A stretch of DNA of 64,000 nucleotides, taken from contig OZ024740.1 of the NCBI GenBank assembly GCA_964016885.1, positions 327,050,001-327,114,000 on the forward strand, read 5' to 3'. This document shows positions 3,658-63,238 of the stretch, in pieces. Origin of the DNA: Eledone cirrhosa (lineage: Eukaryota). Under the pieces are notes generated by a model. That model saw only the letters and a program-made list of their open reading frames with translations. It was not told the DNA's origin and made no database searches. Numbering within the stretch: the stretch's first letter is position 1; each line of letters begins with the position of its first letter. A program made the translations under genes and the position numbers.

Positions 3658-3713
<56 letters not shown>

Positions 3714-3782
3714 AAAAAGAGATGAAATCGAAAATGCAACTGAAGTCTTATTTTTTTAAAAAATATATATATTTATTTGGTT

Positions 3783-3820
3783 CCTTTACCGGTTTCGCAG
3801 TTCTTCTGCTTTTCAAAAGG
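3783..3820 (-). ncRNA. Hammerhead ribozyme, family A (inverted arm)
   Basis: Exact reverse complement of 3905-3942. Confidence 0.8.
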
Positions 3821-3904
3821 TGAGTTGAGATGGAGGGTCTGTGGTTTTTCTCACATGGTTTTTCTCAGATGTGAGAAAAACCACAGACCCTCCATCTCAA
3901 CTCA

Positions 3905-3942
3905 CCTTTTGAAAAGCAGAAGAACTGCGAAACCGGTAAAGG
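3905..3942 (+). ncRNA. Type I hammerhead ribozyme, U3-A8 core variant (family A)
   Basis: cctt-TTGAAAA-gcag aagaa ctgc-GAAA-ccgg-TA-aagg: stem I, stem II and a palindromic stem III. Confidence 0.8.
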
Positions 3943-4075
3943 AACCAAATAAATATATATATTTAAAAAAAAAAAATAAGACTTCAGTTGCATTTTCGAT
4001 TTTATCTCTTTTTCTTTATACTTTCACTCGTGTAGGACACCTCGGTTATTTTTCATTTTGTAAAAAAAACCTCAC

Positions 4076-4175
<100 letters not shown>

Positions 4176-5387: not shown

Positions 5388-5395
5388 AGCATTAA

Positions 5396-5490
5396 TAATT
5401 GTTTCTACTTTTGGCACAAAGCCAGCAATTATCCCAGTGTATTACTGGTACTTTATTTTATCGACGCCGTAAGGATGAAATGCAAAGTTA
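5396..5490 (-). mobile_element. SINE 3' half with a (TAG)n tail
   Basis: Matches the SINE core and 3' end. Confidence 0.8.
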
Positions 5491-6239: not shown

Positions 6240-6323
<84 letters not shown>

Positions 6324-6411
6324 AATTCCGTCGGAAAGGTCCAGGAAAAAAGAGTGCTCTATGTAGGTTACATAGCTTAATAGTTATGTAATAAACAACG
6401 TAAGGCAATTA

Positions 6412-6472
6412 TTTCATTTACCAGTGGTTTCTTAAAAGCAAACAAATTTTGCTTTCAATCATCAGAATGAAA
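6412..6472 (-). ncRNA. Hammerhead ribozyme, family C (inverted arm)
   Basis: Reverse complement of 6540-6600. Confidence 0.9.
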
Positions 6473-6539
6473 AATTCCTGGTGTATTTATTGACATTGGT
6501 TTTTTTAAAAATCCAGTGTCAATAAATACACCAGGATTT

Positions 6540-6600
6540 TTTCATTCTGATGATTGAAAGCAAAATTTGTTTGCTTTTAAGAAACCACTGGTAAATGAAA
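6540..6600 (+). ncRNA. Canonical type I hammerhead ribozyme (family C)
   Basis: tttcatt-CTGATGA-ttgaaagcaaa atttg tttgcttttaa-GAAA-cca c tgg-TA-aatgaaa. Confidence 0.9.
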
Positions 6601-6649
6601 TAATTGCCTTATGTTGTTTATTACATAACTATATATATATATATATATA

Positions 6650-7179
6650 TTGGTAAACGGAATAGAAAATGCTGACAAATTGTTCACAGTTAAAAAATGG
6701 TTTAATTAGGAATAAAAGAGTATTAGTGATTGTATGGGTTAGTATTCAGTTGTGGTTTTAAGTTTTTAAGTTTTTACCGGTTGCGCATTTCTAAATGCTT
6801 TTCAAAAATAATTTTGAGATAGAGTGTCCGTGCTGTTTGCCCTGATCTGATTAGTTTTGGGAATTCTACCTGTTTTTATGTTAAAAAAGTGGCTCCAGCG
6901 TTATTTTTGTGTTGCAAAAATGCTTGTGGTCAAAACAATTTTGATTGGTCGGTAGAGGTCATGTGAATGTAAAAAGTTGATTTTGCGCCAAGACTGTTTT
7001 TATGTTAAAAAAGTGGCTCCAGCAAAAATTCTTGGTCAAAACAATTTTGATTGGTCGGTAGAGGTCATGTGGATAAACAATTGGTTTTGCGCCAAGATTG
7101 AGAAATGACTCTTTCACCGGTTGCGCATTTCTAAATGCTTTTCAAAAATAATTTTGAGATAGAGTGTCCGTGCTGTTTG

Positions 7180-7186
<7 letters not shown>
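6650..7186 (-). mobile_element. Non-autonomous family-B Penelope pLTR copy with a partial direct terminal repeat
   Basis: 6650-7116 is nearly identical to 34458-34925. 6776-6846 is repeated at 7116-7186. Flanked by (TA)n on both sides. Confidence 0.88.
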
Positions 7187-7238
<52 letters not shown>

Positions 7239-7846
7239 TTTGAAATATGTGAATAGAATATATTGTGTATTATCCTGGATATATGATCCTTTCTCACTCT
7301 CTATATATACATATATCTTTTAATTTTGATTCATATATATATATATTTGACTCTAACCATTATTTTAAGTATTACCACCCCACATTAATTCCTCAATTTG
7401 TATGTGTGGATGTGTGTGTGTGTCTGTGGAGGTGGCTGTGAGTGTACTTGCAAGCCAACCTACATAAGTCTTTTTATTTGTAAATTTTCTACTCTAACCA
7501 TCATTTTCAGTAGTACCACCCCACATAAATTCCTCATTTTAAGAATGACCTGTAGTATCTATTTCATACTATTAACCTTAATTGAATATATATCTGACCA
7601 GGAATGCTTTTTGTGAAAATCAGTCATATGGAATTATTATCATCTTGCCTGACGGTTTGAACTTTACAACACCACCTGCCTCTTTGAGGTCAAATACCAA
7701 CCCTACTAGCACCTACAAACTGACCAATGAGAATTAAGACTATTCCTGCTGACAACATTAAATTATTCCTAACAAGCTCATATGTCCCAAGGCTCTGATA
7801 CCATCAACACTATAAACACAGAGCTGGCATATCTAAGAAAAGACTA

Positions 7847-7902
7847 ACTGCCTGATGAGGTCATATCCATTCAATGGCTATCATCGAAATATATATAGCA
7901 GT
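7847..7902 (+). ncRNA. Type I hammerhead ribozyme (family D; element at least 7781-7948)
   Basis: actgc-CTGATGA-ggtcatatccatt c aatggctatcatc-GAAA-tatata-TA-gcagt. Confidence 0.85.
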
Positions 7903-7943
7903 AAATAAAGTATTATGAGTTCATGCAATTGACTTATGCTTCG

Positions 7944-8015
<72 letters not shown>

Positions 8016-10364
8016 AAGGTATACGTACATATGACTACGCACTCTATATATAGAGAAATATGAAGGCTACATTAGATAATGTTGTCTCGGTTACAATATA
8101 TACAAATAATGGATAGAAATGTCGGGGTTGGAACCGAGATTATAAATCTTCTCGATCATGGCTGATTTCAAATTATGTAAAAATAAAAAAAAATAGATGT
8201 TAAAAGTTTAGAAAATGAATGCAGTTAATAACCATTTATTTTTTCTATCGGCATGATTGTGTATTTATATATGTGTTATTGTCGCCAGCTTGAAGATTTA
8301 AGAAAAATACATTAGAACAATTGAAGATTTAAGAAAAAATTTCGAATAAAGTTCACTATCAGCTTCCGAAAAGAGTTATTTTGCTTTCCAAAATAATTAG
8401 AATTCGCAGGGGTTCTGCTAAAGATGAAGTTAATGACTATTGTGTTCTAACTAGTGTTATATTTTCTGATGGATTGTAATTCTTTATAATCGATTGGAAT
8501 TTGCAATTTGTATTTAACATTTCAATGTATTAAATTTTTAGAAATGTCTTATGATTCTTTACACCACACTGATTATAATGAACATTACAAAGTTTCAATT
8601 TTGTTCGGGGACATAAACTGTTATTTAAACCAGTTGGTGTCATACTTGGTTGGTATTTCTCTCATGAACCGAGGAAAGAAAGTTAGAAACGTCAATGGCA
8701 ATGGGATTGAAACTCACAAAGTAAAGAGAAGGGACCAAATGCTGTAAGGCGTTTTGTTTGCTGCCCTACCAATTCTATTGACCGCACTGTTTATAATAAC
8801 TTTTAACATTAAGACAGAACTACATATTTTTGGAAGAGTGTTTCTGTTTAATTAAACGTCAGTATTAACACTTATTTTATCGACCACAGTCAATCTGATG
8901 GACTTTGAGCCCTGAAGGAAAACTAACAAAACTAGATACTGCCATTTATATTATATCTAGGATATATGAATGAACAAGACGAGTAAACCACAAATCAATA
9001 AATAAATAAAAAATGATAATAAACTCATTCACGTGACTTCAAATACCAGAGTACTCAAGGGAGGAAGGAAAATTTGGCTACAAATACAGAACCGATAAAT
9101 CACGAGGGAAAATGAATGATTTGTCACAAGGACATCCACACGACTAGTATTTGTTACCCACTCAATAAAACCTTTTATCTCACATATTAGCACTACATGT
9201 TCAAACAGAGCTAAATAAATATCTTTGGAAATCTATAATATATACAGTTCAAATAATCATTAAACCCATTCTTGATAGCCTCCGAATATCCTTGATGCTA
9301 AAATATATGTGACATCCGACAACATTACAAACTTCATTATTAAAAAATAAACACCTATAAACACTTCTATTTAACCTTCCATACATACTAAAAATATAAA
9401 AAAATATTATCTCATACATCACTGAACTCACTTTCAATAAATCCCACGAGAAAATCTATTTCAAAATAGGACCGTGGATTGATAAGTTACCCTCAGGGAC
9501 TTACATTTACTAACCTTTGTGATGAATATAGTTACTGGATTGTGACAGACAATCTAGTAGTAGTTATGTTTATCATATGGTCAGCATAGCTTATCGATTA
9601 TCAAGGTAAAAAATATCAGTGAATATGTGCGAATGATCGGTATTTACATATGAACTAATACTCTGCAAACTAACTTAACAGACATAGATACGTACATACA
9701 TACATACATACATACATACATACATACAGACAGACAGACATACATACATACACGCATACATATATACATACATATATACATACATACACACATACATATA
9801 TATATACATGCATATATACATACATAAATACATACATGTTTTCATACATACATACATACATATATACATGCATACTTATATACATGCATGTACGTATGTA
9901 TATGTGGTGACAGTAATAGTGAGTTAGATATTCAGTTGTTTGTAATTTCCATTATATGACGGCAACAGTCCATATTAAAAAGGAAATGAGAGATCATAGA
10001 AATAATAATTCACACTAAGCATCCAGCTTGGACTATTTGCAGTTTTATAACATTGCATTTTGACAGTGACCTCCATGCTATCCTGGAGCAAGAAATCTCC
10101 ACTAGGTATATTCTAGATAAATGTAAGTAATGCAAAACCAAAATGACCGTTCCATCTTCTAGAAGCCAAAGTAGTCTAGAATAAAACAAGAACTAAGATA
10201 ACATCAGTCAATTAAATCGAGCACCGTGAGCCCAGTGCATCAAAAGAATACTAGTGGTAATCAGTAATCAAATGAAAATAACAGATATTGTAATTTATAA
10301 GCACAAAAGAGAAACATGCTATATTTCGGAAGTAAGTTACCCACATGAGATCAAGTTGGTAAAA

Positions 10365-10560
10365 ATTATGGTTTTTGATTGAGGCACAAAGACAACCAAT
10401 TTTGGGGAGGGGAAAGTCGATTAAGTCGACCCCAGTACATTACTTGTACTTTATTTTACCGACCTCGTAAGGATGAAAGGCAAAGCTTACCTCGGTGAGA
10501 TTTTAACTCAGAACGCAAAGGGAAGTAACTCTATACCACAAAGCAGGGTGTCTCACGCTC
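10365..10560 (-). mobile_element. SINE, diverged
   Basis: SINE core recognisable. Confidence 0.75.
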
Positions 10561-10720
10561 TAGTAGAAACAACTGATCTATAAATCACTGATGAGGAATA
10601 TGCAAATACAATAAACCAAATCTTCACTCAACATTATGTTCCAATCTGCTTTGATCAAAGTATTGCTAAATTTGGATTCTTTAAGAGAAAACGTAGTTCC
10701 ATTATTTATATGCTATAACC

Positions 10721-10906
10721 GGTGGATTGGCAGTATCGGTAGAGAGTCGGACGCCATGCTTTCCAGCATAGTTACGACCCTTTACGGTCTGAGTTCAAAT
10801 CACGCCGAGGTTAACTTTGCCTTTCATCCTTACGGGGTCGATAAAATAAAGTATCAGTAATGTACTGAGTAATTGCTGGCCTTGTGCCAAAAGTAGAAAC
10901 GGTTAT
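10721..10906 (+). mobile_element. tRNA-derived SINE, full length
   Basis: A-box-like TGGCAGTATCGG, B box GAGTTCAAATC, core GCCTTTCATCCTTACGGGGTCGATAAAATAAAGTA, end CCAAAAGTAGAAAC. Many copies in the window. Confidence 0.9.
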
Positions 10907-11145
10907 TTGTATGCTATAAATGATCATTATATAGCCGAAAATATCAATCTGCAAGACCATCTTAAAATATAAACGGTCAATGGCTGAACAAAATACGAAC
11001 AAGACAAGATATTATACGTGTCTTTCTTTATATATATATATAGTAATAATAATAAATTTGAAGACTAAAATCCAAAGAGAGCTCGATAAGGATAAATATA
11101 TATCAAATATATAAGAACCGTAGAGCAAATCTGTTATTTTAATAG

Positions 11146-14027: not shown

Positions 14028-14073
14028 AAATAAAATAAATAAGTCAAATGTTTAAAATTTGGCTTCGTTTATT

Positions 14074-14128
14074 ACTGCTATATATATTTCGGTGACAGCC
14101 ATCTTTGGCTGTGACCTCTTCAGGCAGT
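14074..14128 (-). ncRNA. Type I hammerhead ribozyme (family D-related; element ~14022-14250)
   Basis: actgc-CTGAAGA-ggtcacagcca aaga tggctgtcacc-GAAA-tatata-TA-gcagt. Compensatory stem II change relative to family D. Confidence 0.88.
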
Positions 14129-14445
14129 CTGAATTAGTGTGGTAGAGACGAGTACACATGTTGTTGAGGTGTTTAACTTTGTCAATACTCTGATATGCCC
14201 AGTTCCTGGTTGGGTTGTTATTTCACTGAGGAACTGGAATCATATACTCAAAAAATATATATATATATATAACAAAGCAATTGTGGTAAGGAACCAGATG
14301 GACCATAACGCACCAGAGTACTCAATACTTAGGGTAGTAGAGTGGGAAATAGGGAAAAGTATGACACCGACGGCAGAGCTCAAGCCGTTTCGACGACTAT
14401 TTCTGGACTAAATTATAATTTTTAGCCTGGTGAATAAATAGCCAA

Positions 14446-14547
14446 CTCCTAAACAAGAAAGAGGAACTGGAACTGGTAACCGCATGCAAACACAGATTGC
14501 GTAGGACTTACCTCACCCTCAAACCCCATAACGACCCGGGTGGGTAG
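14446..14547 (+). pseudogene. C-terminal remnant of a Penelope-type endonuclease ORF
   Basis: LLNKKEELELVTACKHRLRRTYLTLKPHNDPGG* resembles the LNKxxELxxxCxH terminus of PLE GIY-YIG proteins (recognised from memory). Confidence 0.55.
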
Positions 14548-15226
14548 ACAAGGGCTGATACCCCCCTACTTGCCGAATAAGTTAGGGGAAACCTGAGCTT
14601 ACTTAGGTAGATGTATCTCTTTTCTTTTCTTTTCCTCTTTGTCTTCTTCTTCCCCCTGTTTCTTTCCACCCCCTATTTTCTTCCTCGTCTGCTTTTCCCC
14701 TTCGCCTACCCCAATGCAGCCCATCGGGCCTCTGTAGCATCAGTTCCCCCACCCCTGTAATTTTAAGATAGAATTGGCCTAATACGTTTTACTAACTACT
14801 TATAGCAGACGTGTTAAAACCCTTTAATTCTGTATCACTTCTGGTACTACTCAATTTCTACAAGTTTTTTCTATTCTCAACTTATTAACCTGTATTTGTA
14901 AGATAGCATTGTGATTTTTTTTATTCATTTCTCACTATCTAATTTTATATATTTTTTTATTTATTTCTATTATCTTTTATTGTCTCCTACTCTCATTCGA
15001 TTTACCTATTCTATAACCTCCCTCCTCCACTTCATACACTAGCCTTAGAATCTGCTGTATACATATCACTTTCAACGCTTGACCGTTCCACTCACTCCCC
15101 TATTGTTCTACAGGCAAGTTCAGCCACCCCTACCTCCCACCAAATACCATGATAGACTTATTTGTGTTTACAACAAATTTTAACCAATCCTCTTGACAAC
15201 TACAATCTTCCCATATAAGGAAGTAC

Positions 15227-15320
15227 CCCCTTGACAAGTTCGGCTATTTATTCACCAGGCTAAATATTCTAATTTAGTCCAGAAATAGCCGTCGAAACGG
15301 CTTTAGCTCTGCCGTCGGGG
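15227..15320 (+). ncRNA. Hammerhead ribozyme, U3-A8 variant with long stem II and a true stem III (family F)
   Basis: cccc-TTGACAA-gttcggctattt...aaatagccgtc-GAAA-cggc tttagctct gccg-TC-gggg; GUC cleavage triplet. Confidence 0.8.
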
Positions 15321-15419
15321 TCATACTTTTTCATATATATATATATATTATATATATATATATATGTATCTGTATATATAGAAGTAGTTCCACAACAGTT
15401 AGTTCACCATACCGATAAC

Positions 15420-20795: not shown

Positions 20796-20899
20796 AAAGT
20801 TCTATTTAAAATTGTTGGGATACAACAAGTAAATATTTTATAACTGATATAAAGCACTCGACAAGTTTTTGGAGTAGATATACGATATTATTGTATTGT

Positions 20900-20962
20900 A
20901 TTTTGTCTGATGAAGGCATACCATATTTTAATTTGGTATCCCTGAAATATGTATAATGAAAT
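20900..20962 (+). ncRNA. Type I hammerhead ribozyme (family G; element 20793-21007)
   Basis: attttgt-CTGATGA-aggcatacca..tggtatccct-GAAA-tatgta-TA-atgaaat. Confidence 0.78.
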
Positions 20963-21003
20963 AAATATGGTTTTATAAATATAGTTTCCATTTATTTAAT
21001 ATC

Positions 21004-21052
<49 letters not shown>

Positions 21053-21226
21053 AAGATAGTTGGATAGATAACAGGTAAGTGTTAGAATATGGAAATAAGT
21101 ATCACGTTTCAAATTAACACCATTAAATCATTATTTCACCAGATGTCAGGAAATTAATCATGATCGGAATTAATAAAGACTCTGAATATTTCTATAAAGA
21201 AATCTTTAGAATTGAGATGTCATAAA

Positions 21227-21572
21227 TAATTGTTTCTACTTTTGGCACAAGGCCAGCAATTACCCAGTGTATTACTGGTACTTTATTTTATCGACCCCGT
21301 AAGGATGAAAGGCAAATTAACCTCGGCGGGATTTGAACTCAGAATGGCAAGGGCCGTAACTCTATGCGTCAAAGCATGGCGTCCGACCCTCTACCCATAC
21401 TGCCAATCCAACTAATAATAATAATAATCGTTTCTGATTTAGACACAAGGCCAACAATCTTTGAGAGACCGAAAGTCGATTAAATCAAACCCAGTGTATT
21501 ACTGGTACTTCCTTTTATCGACCCCGTAAGGATGAAAAGTAAAGCTAACTCGGTGGGACTTGAACTCAGAAT
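21227..21572 (-). mobile_element. Two tandem SINE copies (21227-21410 full, 21425-21572 partial)
   Basis: Both match the SINE consensus. Confidence 0.85.
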
Positions 21573-21580
21573 GATCCAAT

Positions 21581-26580: not shown

Positions 26581-26681
26581 TTATACACACACACACACAT
26601 GTATTATGCATTATACATACTTACATATATACATTACAAGGGAAAAGTACAAGTATAATCGGATGGCAAACAGTATGGAAA

Positions 26682-26868
26682 ATAATTGTTTCTACTTTTG
26701 ACACAAGGCCAGCAATTATCCAGTGCATTACTGGTACTTTATTTTATCGACCCCGTAAGGATGAAAGGAAAAGTTAACCTCGGCGGGATTTGAACTCAGA
26801 ATGGCAAGGGCCGTAACTCTATGCATCAAAGCATGGTGTCCGACCCTCTACCGTTACTGCCAATCCAC
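26682..26868 (-). mobile_element. tRNA-derived SINE, full length
   Basis: Near-identical to 21227-21410. Confidence 0.9.
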
Positions 26869-27104
26869 GGAAAATAATAATTTATATTATAAATGTTATA
26901 ACTTTTATAACATATACACAAGCTTTTCAATCGTATTTTCGCTCGCCACAAATTAATTGTATCGAACATAAACGTACGAATGTAAATTTAGTGGGAGAAT
27001 TAAATTGAACCCAGTAATTGATTTATGGTACTTTATTTTATCGACCCCAGGAGATTAAAGGCAAATTTGATCTCGGCAGGACTTTTCATTGGAACGTAAT
27101 GGAC

Positions 27105-29371: not shown

Positions 29372-29420
<49 letters not shown>

Positions 29421-29423
<3 letters not shown>

Positions 29424-29601
29424 AAAACGTATGACCCCGACGGCAGGGCTCAAGCCGTTTCGACGGGTCCAGAAATAGCCGTCGAAACGGCTTGAGCTCT
29501 GCCGTCGGGGTCATACTTTTTCCTATTACCCACTCTACTACCCTAAGTATTGAATACTCTGGTGCGTTATGGTCCATCTGGTTCTTTACCACAATTCCTT
29601 C

Positions 29602-29604
<3 letters not shown>
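29421..29604 (+). mobile_element. Family F mini fold-back copy (3' half of the HHR only)
   Basis: Inverted arms ~29421-29465 and ~29479-29523, followed by the family F tail. Confidence 0.8.
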
Positions 29605-32312: not shown

Positions 32313-32714
32313 ATTTCTAAATAAAGCAGAATACAAGCATTTTGGGAGGGGAAAGTCAATTATATCGGCGCTAGTATGTTACTTGTACCTAATTTTATCA
32401 ACTGTTAAAGGATGAAAGGCAAAGTTGATCTCGACGGAATCTGAACTCAGAACATAAATAGCGAAACCAAATGTTGCAAGGATTCATCCGACGCCACAAC
32501 AATTCTTAACAATATTAATATTATATCAAATAATTGTTTCTACTTTTGGCACAAGGCCAGCAATTACCCAGTGCATTACTGGTACTTTATTTTATCGACC
32601 CCGTAAGGATGAAAGGCAAAGTCAACCTCGGCGGGATTTGAACTCAGATCGTAAAGGGACGTAACTATGCTGGAAAGCATGGCGTCCGACCCTCTACCGA
32701 TACTGCCAATCCAC
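32313..32714 (-). mobile_element. Two SINE copies (old 32313-32500, young 32531-32714)
   Basis: Both match the SINE consensus. Confidence 0.85.
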
Positions 32715-33331
32715 CAATAATCACACAAAAAAAGAAGTAAAAAATGCCTCTAACATTCATATACACAAAGATGTACGTTCCCATACATATTCATTGACAC
32801 GCAGACATGCACGACCGCACTCATACATTCACAGTTGGATAAACGTGAAGAAAATGAGATACACGATGCACGAAAAATACACAACCGCACACATAAATAT
32901 ATCCATAAATATATAGATAGATCTACAGTCAGTCATTGACACACGTTACACTTGAGTACGTTTACACATACATACACTTACAACACATAGGCACAGGTAC
33001 GCACAGACGCACGAATACGTATGGAGAAATGGAAATGCATAGTACATGTTAAATAATCAAACGTACACAAACAATCTACACATAAAGCTTATACAAGTAT
33101 AAATGTACACAGACACCAAACCTATTATCACAAGTTGACACACATGGATGCGTGTGTATACACACGTATACGCTGTCTGATATACACAGATGAATTTTAA
33201 AAATGTATATCTTATAAAATGTATACACATTGCCATATACATACTTCGAAGAATGTTACCGGCATTGATCTTACTGGTTTCGGAGAGCCTGCGAAATCTA
33301 AGGGCACAATTCCTTCCACAGTCTCACAGAT

Positions 33332-34418: not shown

Positions 34419-34579
34419 GTTAAAAGAATAGAGGTGTAACACACAAGTTATTATATATTGGTAAACGGAATAGAAAATGCTGACAAATTGTTCACAGTTG
34501 AAAAATGGTTTAATTAGGAATAAAAGAGTATTAGTGATTGTATGGGTTAGTATTCAGTTGTGGTTTTAAGTTTTTAAGT

Positions 34580-34616
34580 TTTTACCGGTTGCGCATTTCT
34601 AAATGCTTTTCAAAAA
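34580..34616 (-). ncRNA. HHR-like motif, family B (pLTR of the Penelope element), non-canonical core
   Basis: ttt-TTGAAAA-gcattt ag aaatgc-GCAA-ccgg-TA-aaa. Same motif at 6772-6808; the 7112-7148 copy has TG at the cleavage position. Confidence 0.55.
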
Positions 34617-34944
34617 TAATTTTGAGATAGAGTGTCCGTGCTGTTTGCTCTGATCTGATTAGTTTTGGGAATTGTACCTGTTTTTATGTTAAAAAAGTGG
34701 CTCCAGCGTTATTTTTGTGTTGCAAAAATGCTTGTGGTCAAAACAATTTTGATTGGTCGGTAGAGGTCATGTGAATGTAAAAAGTTGATTTTGCGCCAAG
34801 ACTGTTTTTATGTTAAAAAAGTGGCTCCAGCAAAAATTCTTGGTCAAAACAATTTTGATTGGTCGGTAGAGGTCATGTGGATAAACAATTGGTTTTGCGC
34901 CAAGATTGAGAAATGACTCTTTCACAACAAATATGTGTGTGTGT

Positions 34945-38331: not shown

Positions 38332-38445
38332 ATAAACTTAAAACCACAACTGAATACTAACCCATACAATCACTAATACTCTTTTATTCCTAATTAAACC
38401 ATTTTTCAACTGTGAACAATTTGTCAGCATTTTCTATTCCGTTTA

Positions 38446-38864
<419 letters not shown>

Positions 38865-40878: not shown

Positions 40879-40880
<2 letters not shown>

Positions 40881-41628
40881 GCAAGTTATTCCGGGTTGAA
40901 TCGGAGGTAACCACAGTAAGTAAGGTACTCAATACATAGCAGAGTATAAAAGTTTTAATATAGATGAGATTCTACAGGACTAGAAGTGTTTCATTCTTTA
41001 GAAATCATCAGGAATCTGGCTTTCCAAAGATAAATGTTGTGGTATTTATATCTTTTCAGGTGGTAGGAGAGGGTGGGGAGTGGGATAGGTGGATGTCATT
41101 GGTTGAAAGAAAAGGGAATTCATTAAAAGCTAATTCTTTAAGGCTATAATTTATATTTAGAGTGACAAAGGCAGAAAGAATTCTATAAACAAGTTCAGAA
41201 TGGGGTGCCACTCCTTATTTTTGAGTTTCTCTTAAGCTAACAATGCCTATATTTCAGGTGTCTATAAGATGGTTGGGGTCGGTCATGGTTGATGGATTTA
41301 AAGAAAATGGAAATTCTTTAAAAGCTAATTCTTTAAAGCTCTAATTAGAGTGACAAAGACCAGAGAATTCTATAAACCAGTTCAAAATATTGGGTGCCTA
41401 TCATATCATTATTGTCATGTTTCTCTTAAGCTATATTCCAGGTGTCAACAGACACATTCACATACACACACACACACATATATATATATATGTGTGTGTG
41501 TGTGTATGAAGATCTTTAAGTCGTTTGGAAGCCTCGACAATGCAAATGGGTAAATCTCCGAGTAACAAGATCCGGTGGTGGATATATATATATATATGGA
41601 TATATGTATATATATATATGTATATATA

Positions 41629-41665
<37 letters not shown>

Positions 41666-41716
41666 ATATATGTATATATATATATATATATATATGGATA
41701 TATATATATATATGGA

Positions 41717-41750
<34 letters not shown>

Positions 41751-42233
41751 CTTACCTGGACAATAATGATATGACAATAATGATATGATAGGCACCCAAT
41801 ATTTTGAACTGGTTTATAGAATTCTCTTGGTCTTTGTCACTCTAATTAGAGCTTTAAAGAATTAGCTTTTAAAGAATTTCCATTTTCTTTAAATCCATCA
41901 ACCATGACCGACCCCCAGCCATCTTATAGACACCTGAAATATAGGCATTGTTAGAGAAACTTAAAAATAAGGAGTGGCACCCCATTCTGAACTTGTTTAT
42001 AGAATTTTTTCTGCCTTTGTCACTCTAAATATAAATTATAGCCTTAAAGAATTAGCTTTTAATGAATTCCCTTTTCTTTCAACCAATGACGTCCACCCAT
42101 CTCACTCCCCACCCTCTTCTACCACCTGAAAAGATATAAATACCACAACATTTATTTTGGAAAGCCAGATTCCTGATGATTTCTAAAGAATGAAGCACTT
42201 CTAGTCTTGTAGAATCTCATCTATATTAAAACT
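40879..42233. mobile_element. Family H fold-back element with ~465-bp inverted arms
   Basis: 40951-41418 is inverted at 41771-42233 with scattered mismatches. Microsatellite-rich spacer; tail at 40879-40950. Confidence 0.85.
40967..41017 (-). ncRNA. Type I hammerhead ribozyme (family H)
   Basis: agattc-CTGATGA-tttc taaa gaat-GAAA-ca cttctagtcc tg-TA-gaatct. The partner at 42167-42217 has GAAG instead of GAAA. Confidence 0.75.
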
Positions 42234-51508: not shown

Positions 51509-51580
<72 letters not shown>

Positions 51581-51639
51581 CAAGGCTCTGATACCATCAA
51601 CACTATACACACAGAGCTGGCATATCTAAAAACTGACTA

Positions 51640-51695
51640 ACTGCCTGATGAGGTCATAGCCATTTAATGGCTATCATCGAAATATATATAGCAGT
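51640..51695 (+). ncRNA. Type I hammerhead ribozyme (family D; element 51575-51742)
   Basis: actgc-CTGATGA-ggtcatagccatt t aatggctatcatc-GAAA-tatata-TA-gcagt. Element sits between TA runs. Confidence 0.88.
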
Positions 51696-51759
51696 AAATA
51701 AAGGATTATGAGTTCATGCAATTAACTTATGTTTCATCACTAAATATATATATATATAT

Positions 51760-51948
51760 AACGAAGGAATTGTGGTAAGGAACCAGGTGGACCATAACGC
51801 ACCAAAGTACTCAATACTTAGGGTAGTAGAGTGGGTAATAGGAACGAGTAGGACCCCGACGGCTGAGCTCAAGCCGTTTCGACAGTTAATTCTGCAGAAT
51901 TAGCCGTCGAAACAGCTTGAGCTCAGCCGTCGGGGTCCTACTCGTTCC

Positions 51949-51950
<2 letters not shown>
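51760..51950. mobile_element. Family F fold-back copy (3' half of the HHR only)
   Basis: Palindrome 51838-51951 centred on ctgcag (51892-51897), with the tail to the left. Confidence 0.8.
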
Positions 51951-51984
<34 letters not shown>

Positions 51985-52479: not shown

Positions 52480-53185
52480 GTATAATCTAACACTACATTA
52501 TCCATCGTCTGTCCATACTTTCACCTATTTCAAGATAATAGCTTAGTTTGTAATTTGAGGGAATGAGGTTGTTATATCTAGCATCTTAAGTAGCCACATA
52601 GAGACTCCTGAGACGACTTGTTGCTCGTTGTTGTTCTTGTTGTTGTTCTTGTTGTTGTTCTTGTTGTATAATCTAACACTACATTATTCATGGTCTGTCC
52701 ATATTTTCACCTATATCAAGACAATAGCTTAGTTTGTAATTTGAGGGAATGTGGTTGTTATATCTAGCATCTTAAGTAGCCACATAGAGACTCTCGAGTT
52801 GACTTGTTGCTCGTTGTTTTTCTTGTTGTTATTCTTGTATAATCTAAGACTACATTATTTAATGTGTGGATTGGCAGTATCGGTAGAGGGTCGGATGCCA
52901 TGCTTTGACGCATAGAGTTACGGCCCTTGCCATTCTCAGTTCAAATCCAGCCGAGGTTAACTTTGCCTTTCATCCTTACAGGGTCGATAAAATAAAATAC
53001 CAGTAATGTACTGACTAATTTCTGGCCTTGTGCCAAACGTAGAAACAATTATATAATGTCTGTCCATACTTTCACCTATATCAAGACAATAGCTTAGTTT
53101 TCTAATTGGAGGGAATGTGGTTGTTATATCTAGCATCTCAAGTAGCCACATAGAGACACCTGAGACGACTTGTTGCTCGTTGTTT
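52480..53185. repeat. Three tandem ~170-190-bp units; the third is interrupted by a SINE
   Basis: gtataatctaa..ctacattat..gacttgttgctcgttg at ~52480, ~52666 and ~52837. Confidence 0.88.
52866..53051 (+). mobile_element. tRNA-derived SINE with a probable 12-bp TSD
   Basis: Flanked by attatttaatgt (52854-52865) and attatataatgt (53048-53059). Confidence 0.88.
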
Positions 53186-56234: not shown

Positions 56235-56582
56235 ATATCTATTATCTCTCTCTCTCGTCTGTATGTATGTCTATCTTTCTATTCCTCTCGTTGTCTTACT
56301 CTGCCTTCCACTCTTTCCCCACAGCAATTCCTTACCTTAAGTGAAGTGAAGTCAGTCATTATTCGGCTGACATATTCTTCTTTTCTTTCTCGTCCTTCAT
56401 TGAGGTGGTGCTGGTGATGATGAAGGTGATAATTGTTTCTACTTTTGGCACAAGGCCAGCAATTACCCAGTACATTACTGGTACTTTATTTTATCGACCC
56501 CGTAAAGATGAAAGGCAAAGTTAACCTCGGCGAGAAAGGTGATAATGGTGATGGCGGTGATCGTTTCTGTCTCAGTATGTAA

Positions 56583-57547: not shown

Positions 57548-57949
57548 GGAAAGTTATATTTAAATTGTTGGGTTACAACTAGTAAATATTTATAACTGAT
57601 ATAAAAGCACTCGACAAATATTTGGAGTATATTTACAATATTAAATAAATGGAAACTATATTTATAAAACCATATTTATTTCATTATATATATTTCAGGG
57701 ATATCATATTAACAATATGCTATGCCTTCCTCAGACAAAATACAATATAAACAGTTTTATAGATAAATCAACCTTTTCAAATGCAAGTCGATGTTGTTAC
57801 GGTATGTCGAATCTATTTATCTATAAAACTGTTTATATTGTATTTTGTCTGAGGAAGGCATAGCATATTGTTAATATGATATCCCTGAAATATATATAAT
57901 GAAATAAATATGGTTTTATAAATATAGTTTCCATTTATTTAATATTGTA
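57548..57949. mobile_element. Family G fold-back element with two HHRs (57678-57741 minus, 57842-57905 plus)
   Basis: Inverted arms ~57636-57769 and ~57814-57948. attttgt-CTGAGGA-stem II-GAAA-tatata-TA-atgaaat. A further fragment lies at 58312-58375. Confidence 0.82.
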
Positions 57950-58080
57950 TATGCATATATATATATATACATGCATATATATATATATATACATACACAC
58001 ATACATACATATACACACACACTCACATACTGAGACAGAAACGACTATCTCTCTGTCTATCTGTCTGTCTCTCTCTCTCG

Positions 58081-58116
<36 letters not shown>

Positions 58117-58226
58117 GTTATTCTGAGTTGAATCGGAAGTAACCACAGTAAGTAAGGTACTCAATACATAGCAGAGTGCAAAAGTTTTAGAGTATAAAAG
58201 TTTAAGAGTATAAAAGTTTAAAAGCC

Positions 58227-58277
58227 AGATTCCTGATGATTTCTAAAGAATGAAACAGTTCTAGTCCCGTAGAATCT
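58227..58277 (+). ncRNA. Hammerhead ribozyme, family H (element 58115-58293)
   Basis: Same stems I and II and intact CTGATGA/GAAA/TA core. Confidence 0.7.
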
Positions 58278-58483
58278 CATCTATATTAAAACTATATATA
58301 TATATATATATACAATATAAACAGTCTTATATATACAATATAAACAGTCTGTATTTTGTCTGAAGAAGGCATAACATATATATATATATATATATATCCA
58401 TACATAACTACACATACGTACATATGCACGCACACACACACATCTATGCATTCATCATTATAATTATTATTAATTAAGGGCGT

Positions 58484-58668
58484 TGGATTGGCAGTATCGG
58501 TAGAGGGTCGGACGTCATGCGTTGACGCATAGAGTTATGGCCCTTGCCATTCTGAGTTCAAATACCGCCGAGGTTAACTTTGCCTTTCATCCTTACGGGG
58601 TCGATAAAATAAAGTACCAGTAATGTACTGGGTAATTGTTGGCCTTGTGCCTAAAGTAGAAACAATTA
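58484..58668 (+). mobile_element. tRNA-derived SINE, full length
   Basis: Matches the consensus. More degenerate copies occur near 16520, 27005, 27985, 40150, 44850 and 60400-60615. Confidence 0.9.
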
Positions 58669-59234
58669 TAATTATTATTAATATCACTATTATTATATAT
58701 TATATATATTTCTTGTTTTCCTCTGATTCCACATTGCAAGTTAGCAATAAACGGACAACGCCGCTTGCTATAGTAACATTCTGTCTGCTAAACCTGGCAG
58801 TCTAACATTTCACCCTGTCGTCCAATGTGTTTGTCGCACAAAATGTCAGGCGCAAACTAGCTGAAAACCACGGTATGATGCACTATGTCATACGATATGA
58901 TTGTTCCAGCTGGTTGGCTGGTTGGCTGGTTGAATGGCAGGCTGACTGGACGGCTGATTGGCTGTTTAGCTGGATGGCTGGCTGGTTGACTATTTGGGTG
59001 GCTGGTTAGCTAGTTGGTCAGTTGGTCAGTTGATCTGTTGTTTCTATCTAGCCCCAGGCTAGATAGAAACAAAGGCATCCAATCTTTATTTTTCAGACAT
59101 GTATAAATATAACTGTTTTTTTTATCCCTCTTCTTCAGTCTATGAGGATATTAAATATATTATACAAAGACAAAATGTTTACATTTGACTATATATACAG
59201 TGTTGCCTATATATATGTTTTGTTCCCGTATAAA

Positions 59235-62687: not shown

Positions 62688-63162
62688 ATTTCGTTTCTGA
62701 ATTTGTTTAGCAAGATTCTTTATCTGAAATCGTGTGTTGAAACCGATATTGTTATACTTTGGGAGGGTCATGTTGCCAATAAGAAACACACGCACCAGTT
62801 GCTTTCACTTCAATTTATTATAATAAATTTATAATAAGTTTATAAATTTATAAATTTCTGGTTGGTTGGTTGGTTCCACAACCAGATAGTTGTTTATATA
62901 TAGTCATAGTTCTTTCGTCACACACTCTGTGACCTCTTCAGTGACACAGAAACAAAGAAAGGAATCCCCAGTCACTGAAGAGGTCACAGAGTGTGTGACG
63001 AAAGAACTATGACTATATATAAACAACTATCTGGTTGTGGAACCAACCAACCAACCAGAAATTTATAAATTTATAAACTTATTATAAATTTATTATAATA
63101 AATTGAAGTCAAAGTTACTGGTGCGTGTGTTTCTTATTGGCAACATGACCCTCCCAAAGTAT

Positions 63163-63168
<6 letters not shown>
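62688..63168. mobile_element. Family E fold-back element with two HHRs (62903-62945 minus, 62970-63014 plus)
   Basis: Arms 62747-62945 and 62971-63168. agtca-CTGAAGA-g gtcaca gagtg tgtgac-GAAA-gaac-TA-tgact. Confidence 0.8.

Positions 63169-63238
<70 letters not shown>

What the first reader, a model, noticed from the sequence alone, without database searches (positions are those of the whole stretch)
6322..6632. Recurrent tail-outward fold-back geometry with one full tail and one tail cut at TA microhomology
Seen in C (here), A (3708-4080), F (14271-15333, 29421-29604, 51760-51950), G (57548-57949), H (40879-42233) and E (62688-63168). Both outer junctions with (TA)n are element 3' ends, while the 5'-truncated ends meet in the middle. 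One arm keeps a longer tail; the other usually stops where the element itself reads tat/ata (ctat|, cctat|, caatat|, |tataaag). Inference: both sides of a break in (TA)n prime reverse transcription (twin priming), one at the RNA end and one internally. This would extend the known inverted-pLTR arrangement of PLEs into a rule across six families.
Basis: partly seen in the sequence, partly recalled or inferred. Interest (0 to 1): 0.78.

Follow-up and report, generated by a model that had tools for sequence, protein, structure and literature searches.

The report
One-tailed mirror insertions of Penelope elements
These mirror-image stretches are real insertions of a known class of jumping genes (Penelope-like elements) that almost always pair one long-ended arm with one short-ended arm, a rule that likely arises because the element's RNA is copied from both sides of the cut DNA starting at two fixed internal points, which would explain a long-unexplained feature of this class.

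Summary
The geometry is real and nearly obligate. In 1.6 Mb of blind genome sample plus the window, 69 of 70 classifiable head-to-head pairs had one tail-bearing and one tail-less arm (59 of 60 without the window); none pointed tail-to-tail. The rule also held in 4 of 4 readable full-length copies. The elements are Penelope-like: C has Hydra-clade marks, A and E have Neptune-type RT plus GIY-YIG. The short end sits on a TA word (mean 3.3 nt against 0.96 by chance), but its position is fixed: longer TA runs nearby go unused. The long end is not the RNA end: in C and A the element reads on through another TA word into the ORF, and in C each end lies just before a GCTC..GAGC stem. Twin priming from two internal sites fits best (about 0.62); simple fold-back copying cannot make the 23 pairs whose tail-less arm reaches further 5'. 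Inverted pLTRs, one-sided tails and two start sites are in print; I found no paper with the strict rule or the stems. This scan noted both before, in this and other genomes. Long reads and empty sites were not available.

The parts
6320..6499 (-). Family C tail-bearing arm (pLTR fragment plus tail), 3' end outward into (TA)n
6320..6379 (-). Tail, about 60 nt, between the proximal and distal end sites; present on this arm only
   Evidence: C ends pile at two positions
6356..6376 (-). First tail stem (GCTC..GAGC in the family; this copy has one substitution at 6373), 3 nt after the proximal TA word
   Evidence: reads show the family letter at 6373 in 473 of 488
6419..6484 (-). Hammerhead-like motif (CTGATGA..GAAA core 6453-6465) of the left arm, reading outward
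   Evidence: core seen in sequence; no Rfam hammerhead among the 150 listed rows; activity untested
6499..6512 (.). Centre joint at the family's 5' truncation hot spot; the T/A spacer reads as part of the tail-less arm with a 1-nt overlap, but is a near-palindrome and so ambiguous
   Evidence: the same joint recurs in L045 and L060, other copies carry different added bases
6499..6632 (+). Family C tail-less arm ending at the proximal site ctat|(AT)n; hammerhead-like core at 6547-6559
3707..4083 (.). Family A pair (tail-less left, tail-bearing right); family linked to RT plus C-terminal GIY-YIG
14271..15336 (.). Family F pair; short tail-bearing arm left, tail-less arm right reaching several hundred nt further 5'
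   Evidence: centre not fully resolved
29419..29604 (.). Family F pair; tail-bearing arm meets (TC)n
51760..51951 (.). Family F pair, both arms truncated at the same point
57549..57952 (.). Family G pair; tail-less arm 50 nt longer at the 5' side
40879..42233 (.). Family H pair, 469-nt arms at 96%, centre holds simple repeats
62689..63170 (.). Family E pair; tail-less arm 26 nt longer at the 5' side, 1-nt overlap; family linked to RT plus C-terminal GIY-YIG
20796..21012 (.).
58117..58293 (.).

Best explanation
These are head-to-head insertions of endonuclease-bearing Penelope-like retroelements in (TA)n, each with one tail-bearing and one tail-less arm, likely made when the two 3' ends of a cut in (TA)n each prime reverse transcription at one of two fixed internal sites, probably on the same RNA, and the two cDNAs are then joined at their far ends. 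Shown: the pairing rule, two fixed end sites per family 55-90 nt apart, TA words at both sites in C and A, read-through into the ORF, a covarying RCTC..GAGY stem just 3' of the proximal site in about half of the tail clusters and just 3' of the distal site in C and six other clusters. Inferred: that the stems (Hydra-type families) or other structure (A, E) place the two active sites of a protein dimer, that 2-7 nt of TA pairing only fine-tunes the start, that the distal enzyme trails and displaces the proximal cDNA or stops near it, that both often run off a short RNA begun at the pLTR promoter, and that the centre is closed by microhomology joining.
For: Pair rule 69 of 70. Prediction tested on new sequence: full-length A copies with a tail-less inverted arm end with a tail about 4.5 kb away (3 of 3) and one with a tailed inverted arm ends tail-less (1 of 1 readable; the fifth had no pLTR in the 4 kb fetched). 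Of 104 full+proximal pairs from all loci, the tail-less arm reaches more than 15 nt further 5' in 23, the tailed arm in 9, equal in 58, unresolved in 14 (blind set 19, 4, 35, 11 of 69); a tail-less arm longer than its partner cannot be a copy of it. In 9 of those 23 the tailed arm stops within 30 nt of the proximal site, the abutting layout recalled for L1 twin priming; 12-13-nt tail stubs occur in E. Arms agree at 641 of 686 polymorphic-site comparisons against about 388 expected. Centres show 0-8-nt overlaps, added bases and short local duplications. TA overlap at the proximal site 3.3 nt against 0.96, 0 of 20000 draws, 27 clusters. Stem 6-9 nt after the proximal TA start in 14 of 27 clusters (15 with H at 17), 0.8 expected, first pair matched 15 of 15 (8 A-T, 7 G-C). 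Second stem in 13 of 26 read-through rows, background 2.3% (some rows are the same locus) and in C itself. In vitro, the Anolis Poseidon protein cuts and extends both strands, starts at two internal sites that bracket the tail, and is predicted to be a dimer (PMC11167929).
Against: No intermediate or enzyme was observed; all is read from finished insertions. 58 of 104 pairs have near-equal 5' ends, which fold-back copying explains as well. Later deletions at palindrome centres could lengthen either arm in appearance. Arm concordance also fits gene conversion or one dominant source element at a time. 9 pairs have the tailed arm longer, 1 pair has two tails (L067), 1 mixed-family joint has two proximal ends (L206). 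PMC11167929 reports no difference in start site between strands and a start site not homologous to the target; one-of-each pairing was not measured there. A and E lack the RCTC..GAGY stem yet obey the rule. C distal ends are ragged: only 11 of 44 match through the TA word, against 10 of 13 in A. The extra G expected from a capped 5' end is mixed: F 12 of 20, C 8 of 10, H 2 of 9, A 2 of 8, and can come from the other arm. Target duplications cannot be read in (TA)n.
Confidence: 0.62

Rival explanations
1. One priming event; the cDNA (or an antisense template) folds back at a palindrome, copies itself, and the endonuclease trims one arm at the proximal site. Uneven centres come from later deletion.
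For: Self-priming proposed in PMC3846280 and endonuclease resolution in PMC8557442 (passages). 58 of 104 pairs have near-equal 5' ends, often at short palindromes; arms share variants.
Against: 23 pairs with the tail-less arm longer, 9 of them with a tail-only partner; a full-length tail-less A copy with a 500-nt tailed inverted arm (L265/L281); unpaired copies ending at the proximal site, some starting at the 5' hot spot directly on (TA)n.
Confidence: 0.17
2. Twin priming, but on two separate RNA molecules held by two proteins, each set to one start site.
For: Overlapping arms need no strand displacement. Two mixed-family head-to-head joints without a TA run between them (L152 E+C, L206 F+G). 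A arms agree at only 55 of 74 polymorphic comparisons.
Against: High concordance in the other five families (586 of 612); arms that abut at the proximal site suggest one template; nothing obvious would force one-of-each on two RNAs; the mixed joints may be deletions between neighbours.
Confidence: 0.12
3. One reading: one start at the RNA 3' end, the other wherever target TA happens to pair inside the RNA.
For: TA overlap at the short end is real; H uses three TA words within 14 nt.
Against: C and A read on past the long end into the ORF; 8-10-nt TA runs in A, G and E take 0 of 28, 0 of 57 and 1 of 65 ends.
Confidence: 0.05
4. Fold-back reads or assembly artefact, or miniature DNA transposons.
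For: This locus's centre was not shown in reads; no long reads were offered.
Against: Arms differ by 1.6-4.9% on average; fixed one-sided tail; ends and strand-switch joints in short-read data of other studies; links to RT and GIY-YIG ORFs.
Confidence: 0.02

Closest known systems
EN+ Penelope-like element insertions with inverted 5'-truncated pLTR and one-sided tail (Pen2a_Av, PMC3846280; Fig. 2 legend of PMC8557442)
   Same: Head-to-head arms, tail on one of the inverted pLTRs, palindromes at the centre, hammerhead motifs in pLTRs, (TA)n targets for Hydra, Naiad and Neptune.
   Different: Tails here are mostly 55-90 nt, not 30-40; the tail is not optional within a pair but nearly obligate on exactly one arm; those papers propose self-priming or endonuclease resolution, not two priming events.
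Poseidon_Ac internal initiation (PMC11167929)
   Same: Two internal start sites bracket the tail; both target strands are cut and extended; AT-rich target; predicted dimer.
   Different: There the start site is reported as not homologous to the target; here both sites overlap TA words in C and A. Inverted arms and pairing of the two sites are not treated in the main text that I read.
Hydra clade PLEs (PMC8557442, section 11)
   Same: Family C ORF start has RWK and DKT; hammerhead present; (TA)n target.
   Different: EN domain of C not seen here; the paired GCTC..GAGC stems are not in that section.
L1 twin priming (Ostertag and Kazazian 2001; recalled, paper not held)
   Same: Second target strand primes internally, inverted segment, short overlaps at the centre; 9 pairs have the abutting layout.
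   Different: L1 starts at the poly(A) end and at a variable internal site and its arms do not overlap; here both sites are fixed and internal and most arms overlap.

Membership tests
EN+ Penelope-like elements | RT plus GIY-YIG endonuclease in the element's ORF | tested here: met
   A: RVT_1 E 1e-6 (just under cut-off) and GIY-YIG E 1.9e-6 in one frame, continuous with the pLTR. E: YVDD motif and GIY-YIG E 1.2e-4 upstream of the pLTR. C: only the first 164 codons seen. F, G, H: no ORF in hand.
EN+ Penelope-like elements | pLTR with hammerhead core in sense orientation | tested here: met
   CTGANGA..GAAA cores read outward in 25 and inward in 0 of the 142 inverted repeats with a TA run on both sides; seen by eye in C, E, G, H and in altered form in A; F pairs mostly begin 3' of any core. 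No Rfam hammerhead among the rows shown; cleavage untested.
EN+ Penelope-like elements | Partial tandem (pLTR before the ORF) and inverted 5'-truncated copy with tail at one end | tested here: met
EN+ Penelope-like elements | Target-site duplication | not testable with these tools
   targets are (TA)n; no empty allele available
Hydra clade (family C) | RWK motif and DKG changed to DKT | tested here: met
   L287 ORF has MRWKA and SDKTK; features from PMC8557442 section 11. One copy only.
Hydra clade (family C) | CxCX5C linker, no CCHH in the endonuclease; place in the RT tree | not tested
   C-terminal part of the C ORF was not fetched; no tree built
Neptune/Nematis type (families A, E) | CX2-5CxxC linker before a C-terminal GIY-YIG | tested here: met
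   A: CGRSNCGTC; E: CIDKKCITC; A has DKG. Clade not fixed by a tree.
L1-type twin priming | First primer at the RNA 3' end | tested here: not met
   C and A continue past the distal end into the ORF
L1-type twin priming | Non-overlapping arms that abut at the internal priming site | tested here: inconclusive
   9 of 90 resolved pairs abut; most overlap
MITE / foldback DNA transposon | Symmetric terminal inverted repeats and fixed internal length | tested here: not met
   one-sided tail, variable centres, RT linkage

The most novel reading that the evidence does not exclude
A Penelope-like protein dimer sits on two tandem RNA signals (paired GCTC..GAGC stems in Hydra-type families), and each subunit primes one strand of a double-strand cut in (TA)n a few bases 5' of its own stem, so every two-armed insertion is one tailed and one tail-less cDNA from one RNA. 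Twin priming would be the normal route of this class, not an accident as in L1.
Probability: 0.4. Interest if true: 0.75.

Novelty: new member of a known kind. Interest (0 to 1): 0.5.

Why it matters
How Penelope-like elements, the closest relatives of telomerase reverse transcriptase, build inverted pLTRs and tails is named as open in PMC8557442 and PMC11167929. A near-obligate one-of-each rule, two fixed internal sites and a covarying stem beside each site give direct predictions for the existing in vitro system. The shape itself is known, so the gain is a testable mechanism, not a new kind of element. Such pairs are also dense here (71 pairs of six families in 1.6 Mb), so they matter for repeat annotation, where they can pass for MITEs or microRNA hairpins.

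Tried and rejected
Rfam scan of the window gave only sub-threshold microRNA-like hits on hairpins and simple repeats in the 150 rows shown of 314. Genome searches with cores of A, F and G returned nothing, probably because common words are skipped, so blind sampling was used. A first measure of 5' extents used unpaired copies that hid short second arms and ran across centres and a second allowed long gaps; both were replaced. The arm-difference list was off by one base and was redone. Whole-tail folding energy was only weakly better than shuffles (mean z -1.2); the stem rests on motif position and covariation. No ORF was tied to F, G or H. Loci for E long copies could not be cut. The cap-G test was mixed. 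PMC12910113 and the retrozyme preprint 10.64898/2026.07.22.740005 had no passage on this geometry. No structure or complex prediction was run.

Full report
Observation. The window is G000:C1:327050001-327114000 of a 3.0-Gb genome. At 6320-6632 two arms of one repeat (family C) lie head to head between (TA)n runs; the left arm has about 60 extra bases, the right ends at ctat|(AT)n. Self-comparison and direct reading confirmed the seven other listed cases and two more. The 29604 end meets (TC)n.

Sample. A search with the tailed C arm scored 40 of 1413 candidates; 16 had a second inverted hit, 13 ending at the same point. Because that query favours tails, I took 160 blind 10-kb stretches from eight chromosomes, 40 of them next to the window. 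Each family has two main 3' end points 55-90 nt apart. In the blind set plus the window, 81 head-to-head pairs gave 69 full+proximal, 1 full+full, 0 proximal+proximal and 11 with an unclassified arm; unpaired copies were 64 full, 41 proximal, 19 other; tail-to-tail pairs 0. Ten of the 69 are the window's own. Independent draws would give about 33, 26 and 11 of 70. On reading, none of the 11 showed two clean proximal ends; two run off a stretch edge. Some unpaired copies hide a short or divergent partner, so the unpaired ratio is rough. A family-free scan found 306 inverted repeats: 96 flush/tail, 18 flush/flush (not resolved), 6 tail/tail, 186 other; hammerhead cores read outward 25 times and inward never among the 142 with TA runs on both sides.

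Not an artefact. Arms differ by 1.6-4.9% on average. No long-read run was among the 16 listed. Laid on a natural single-arm A copy, short-read data of three studies showed loose ends running into TA at the distal site (381 raw reads in X15, 46 contigs in X5, 1 in X1) and the proximal site (36 contigs in X5, 1 in X1), a pile of 5' ends at the centre hot spot, and strand-switch joints (150 reads from 3 starts; 3 reads from 2 starts); the fourth run gave 1 read. On the C locus, contigs and a few reads join the two arms at various points, but its own centre was not shown. X5 and X6 are one sample and may be the assembly's source.

Identity. E lies 3' of an ORF with YVDD, a CX4CxxC linker and GIY-YIG. 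[quoted passage not shown] C reads on into an ORF with RWK and DKT, the Hydra marks of PMC8557442 section 11. F, G and H are assigned by geometry, hammerhead core (G, H) and the shared tail stem only.

TA words. Over 27 tail clusters from 88 pairs, the overlap between element and TA run at the short end averaged 3.3 nt against 0.96 at other positions (0 of 20000 draws), and was 3 or more in 18 against 2.7. But 8-10-nt TA runs inside the pLTR took 0 of 28 ends in A, 0 of 57 in G and 1 of 65 in E. So the site is fixed and TA pairing at most fine-tunes it.

The long end is internal. All 30 A loci fetched by their ORF start (so selected for read-through) continue from the tail through a TA word to an ATG 27 nt on; 10 of 13 other A copies end in that word. 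A pattern search found 114 C places that continue past the tail, 79 of the 100 listed reading identically through TTATAC to GCTC; reversed-pattern control 0. C distal ends are ragged: 11 of 44 match through the TA word, most stop 1-6 nt earlier. This contradicts 'one at the RNA end' at the DNA level; the RNA ends were not measured.

Stems. RCTC-N11..42-GAGY begins 6-9 nt after the start of the proximal TA run in 14 of 27 clusters (15 with H), 0.8 expected, with the outer pair matched in 15 of 15. After earlier scan notes pointed to a second stem, I found one within 25 nt of the distal end in 13 of 26 read-through rows, six clusters, background 2.3% (several rows are the same locus, and the other 13 include later insertions and alignments that stop short) and in C, where it folds with a long loop. 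A and E lack this motif yet follow the rule.

Mechanism. Of 104 full+proximal pairs (blind and search-derived), the tail-less arm extends over 15 nt further 5' in 23, the tailed arm in 9, neither in 58, and 14 were unresolved (23 against 9, p 0.02). A cDNA begun at the distal site and folded back can only give a partner nested in itself; one begun at the proximal site cannot give a tail. Nine of the 23 have a tailed arm that stops within 30 nt of the proximal site. As a forward test, I fetched the far ends of five long A copies: three with a tail-less inverted arm end with a tail, one with a tailed inverted arm ends tail-less, one was unreadable. Arms agree at 641 of 686 polymorphic comparisons, about 388 expected, which fits one RNA but also gene conversion or one source at a time. 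Centres cluster at sites that look like a pLTR transcription start (TATA-like word about 30 nt upstream in A, F, H; my reading, initiator consensus recalled); the extra-G test was mixed. I conclude two priming events at two fixed internal sites (0.62, or 0.74 with the two-RNA form); fold-back with trimming and later deletion stays possible (0.17).

Literature. PMC3846280 (passages): head-to-head inverted pLTRs, a 31-bp tail optional on one of them, self-priming proposed. PMC8557442 (passages and section 11): tail often at one end, endonuclease resolution proposed, (TA)n targets. PMC11167929 (parts 1-2 of 4, the whole results and discussion): both strands cut and extended, two internal start sites bracketing the tail, predicted dimer, start site not homologous to the target. 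PMC4209133 (passages): opposite-strand hammerhead pairs 100-700 bp apart. 10.64898/2026.07.22.740005 and PMC12910113 (passages): nothing on this geometry. PMC3649969 gave only the L1 twin-priming reference; that paper was not held and is recalled. Six searches showed no paper applying twin priming to these elements or describing the stems; subscription papers and supplements were not seen. The scan's own notes report the same rule and twin hairpins in this genome and twin priming in others; they are not independent support.

Verdict. Real, general and ordinary in shape; the strict pairing, two internal TA sites and stems sharpen an open mechanism into tests. New members of known clades; interest 0.5.

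Noticed in passing
L152 and L206: Head-to-head joints between arms of different families with no TA run between them (E proximal + C full; F proximal + G proximal): two RNAs in one event, or deletion between neighbours.
   Followed up: partly
L288 (G000:C2:169702680-169703129): 183-nt tandem array made of the C segment from the first stem to just past the second stem, at least five units; it lacks the hammerhead.
   Followed up: partly
L108:5413-10000 and L109:1-4300: Long tandem array of about 468 nt from another hammerhead-bearing tail family, with an inversion point; retrozyme-like.
   Followed up: no
window 6651-7184 and 34458-34925, 38334-38448: Neighbouring repeat with internal direct repeats, 99% identical to a copy 28 kb away; distantly like family A and pointing toward C's tail-less end across a 20-nt TA run.
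   Followed up: no
window 7783-7947, 51576-51742, 14065-14128: A further hammerhead-bearing family (CTGATGA..GAAA) inserted at (TA)n with two end points.
   Followed up: partly
L002, L007, L018, L019, L028, L216 flanks: Insertions of different families stack in the same TA runs, often 12-30 nt apart, suggesting that each insertion leaves targets for the next.
   Followed up: no
C loci L003-L030, upstream of the pLTR: Family C and H carry internal (TA)n/(TG)n tracts in the 3' untranslated part, and C has a pyrimidine-rich TTCCAG acceptor-like site 35 nt before the centre hot spot.
   Followed up: no
window 5390-5490, 10360-10930, 21221-21573, 26680-26881, 32330-32721, 52866-53058, 56429-56535, 58460-58695: Abundant SINE-like dispersed repeat, about ten copies, unrelated to the finding.
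   Followed up: no
L097:3382-5163: ORF with CNCX5C linker and GIY-YIG, Hydra-like, not tied to any of the six families.
   Followed up: no
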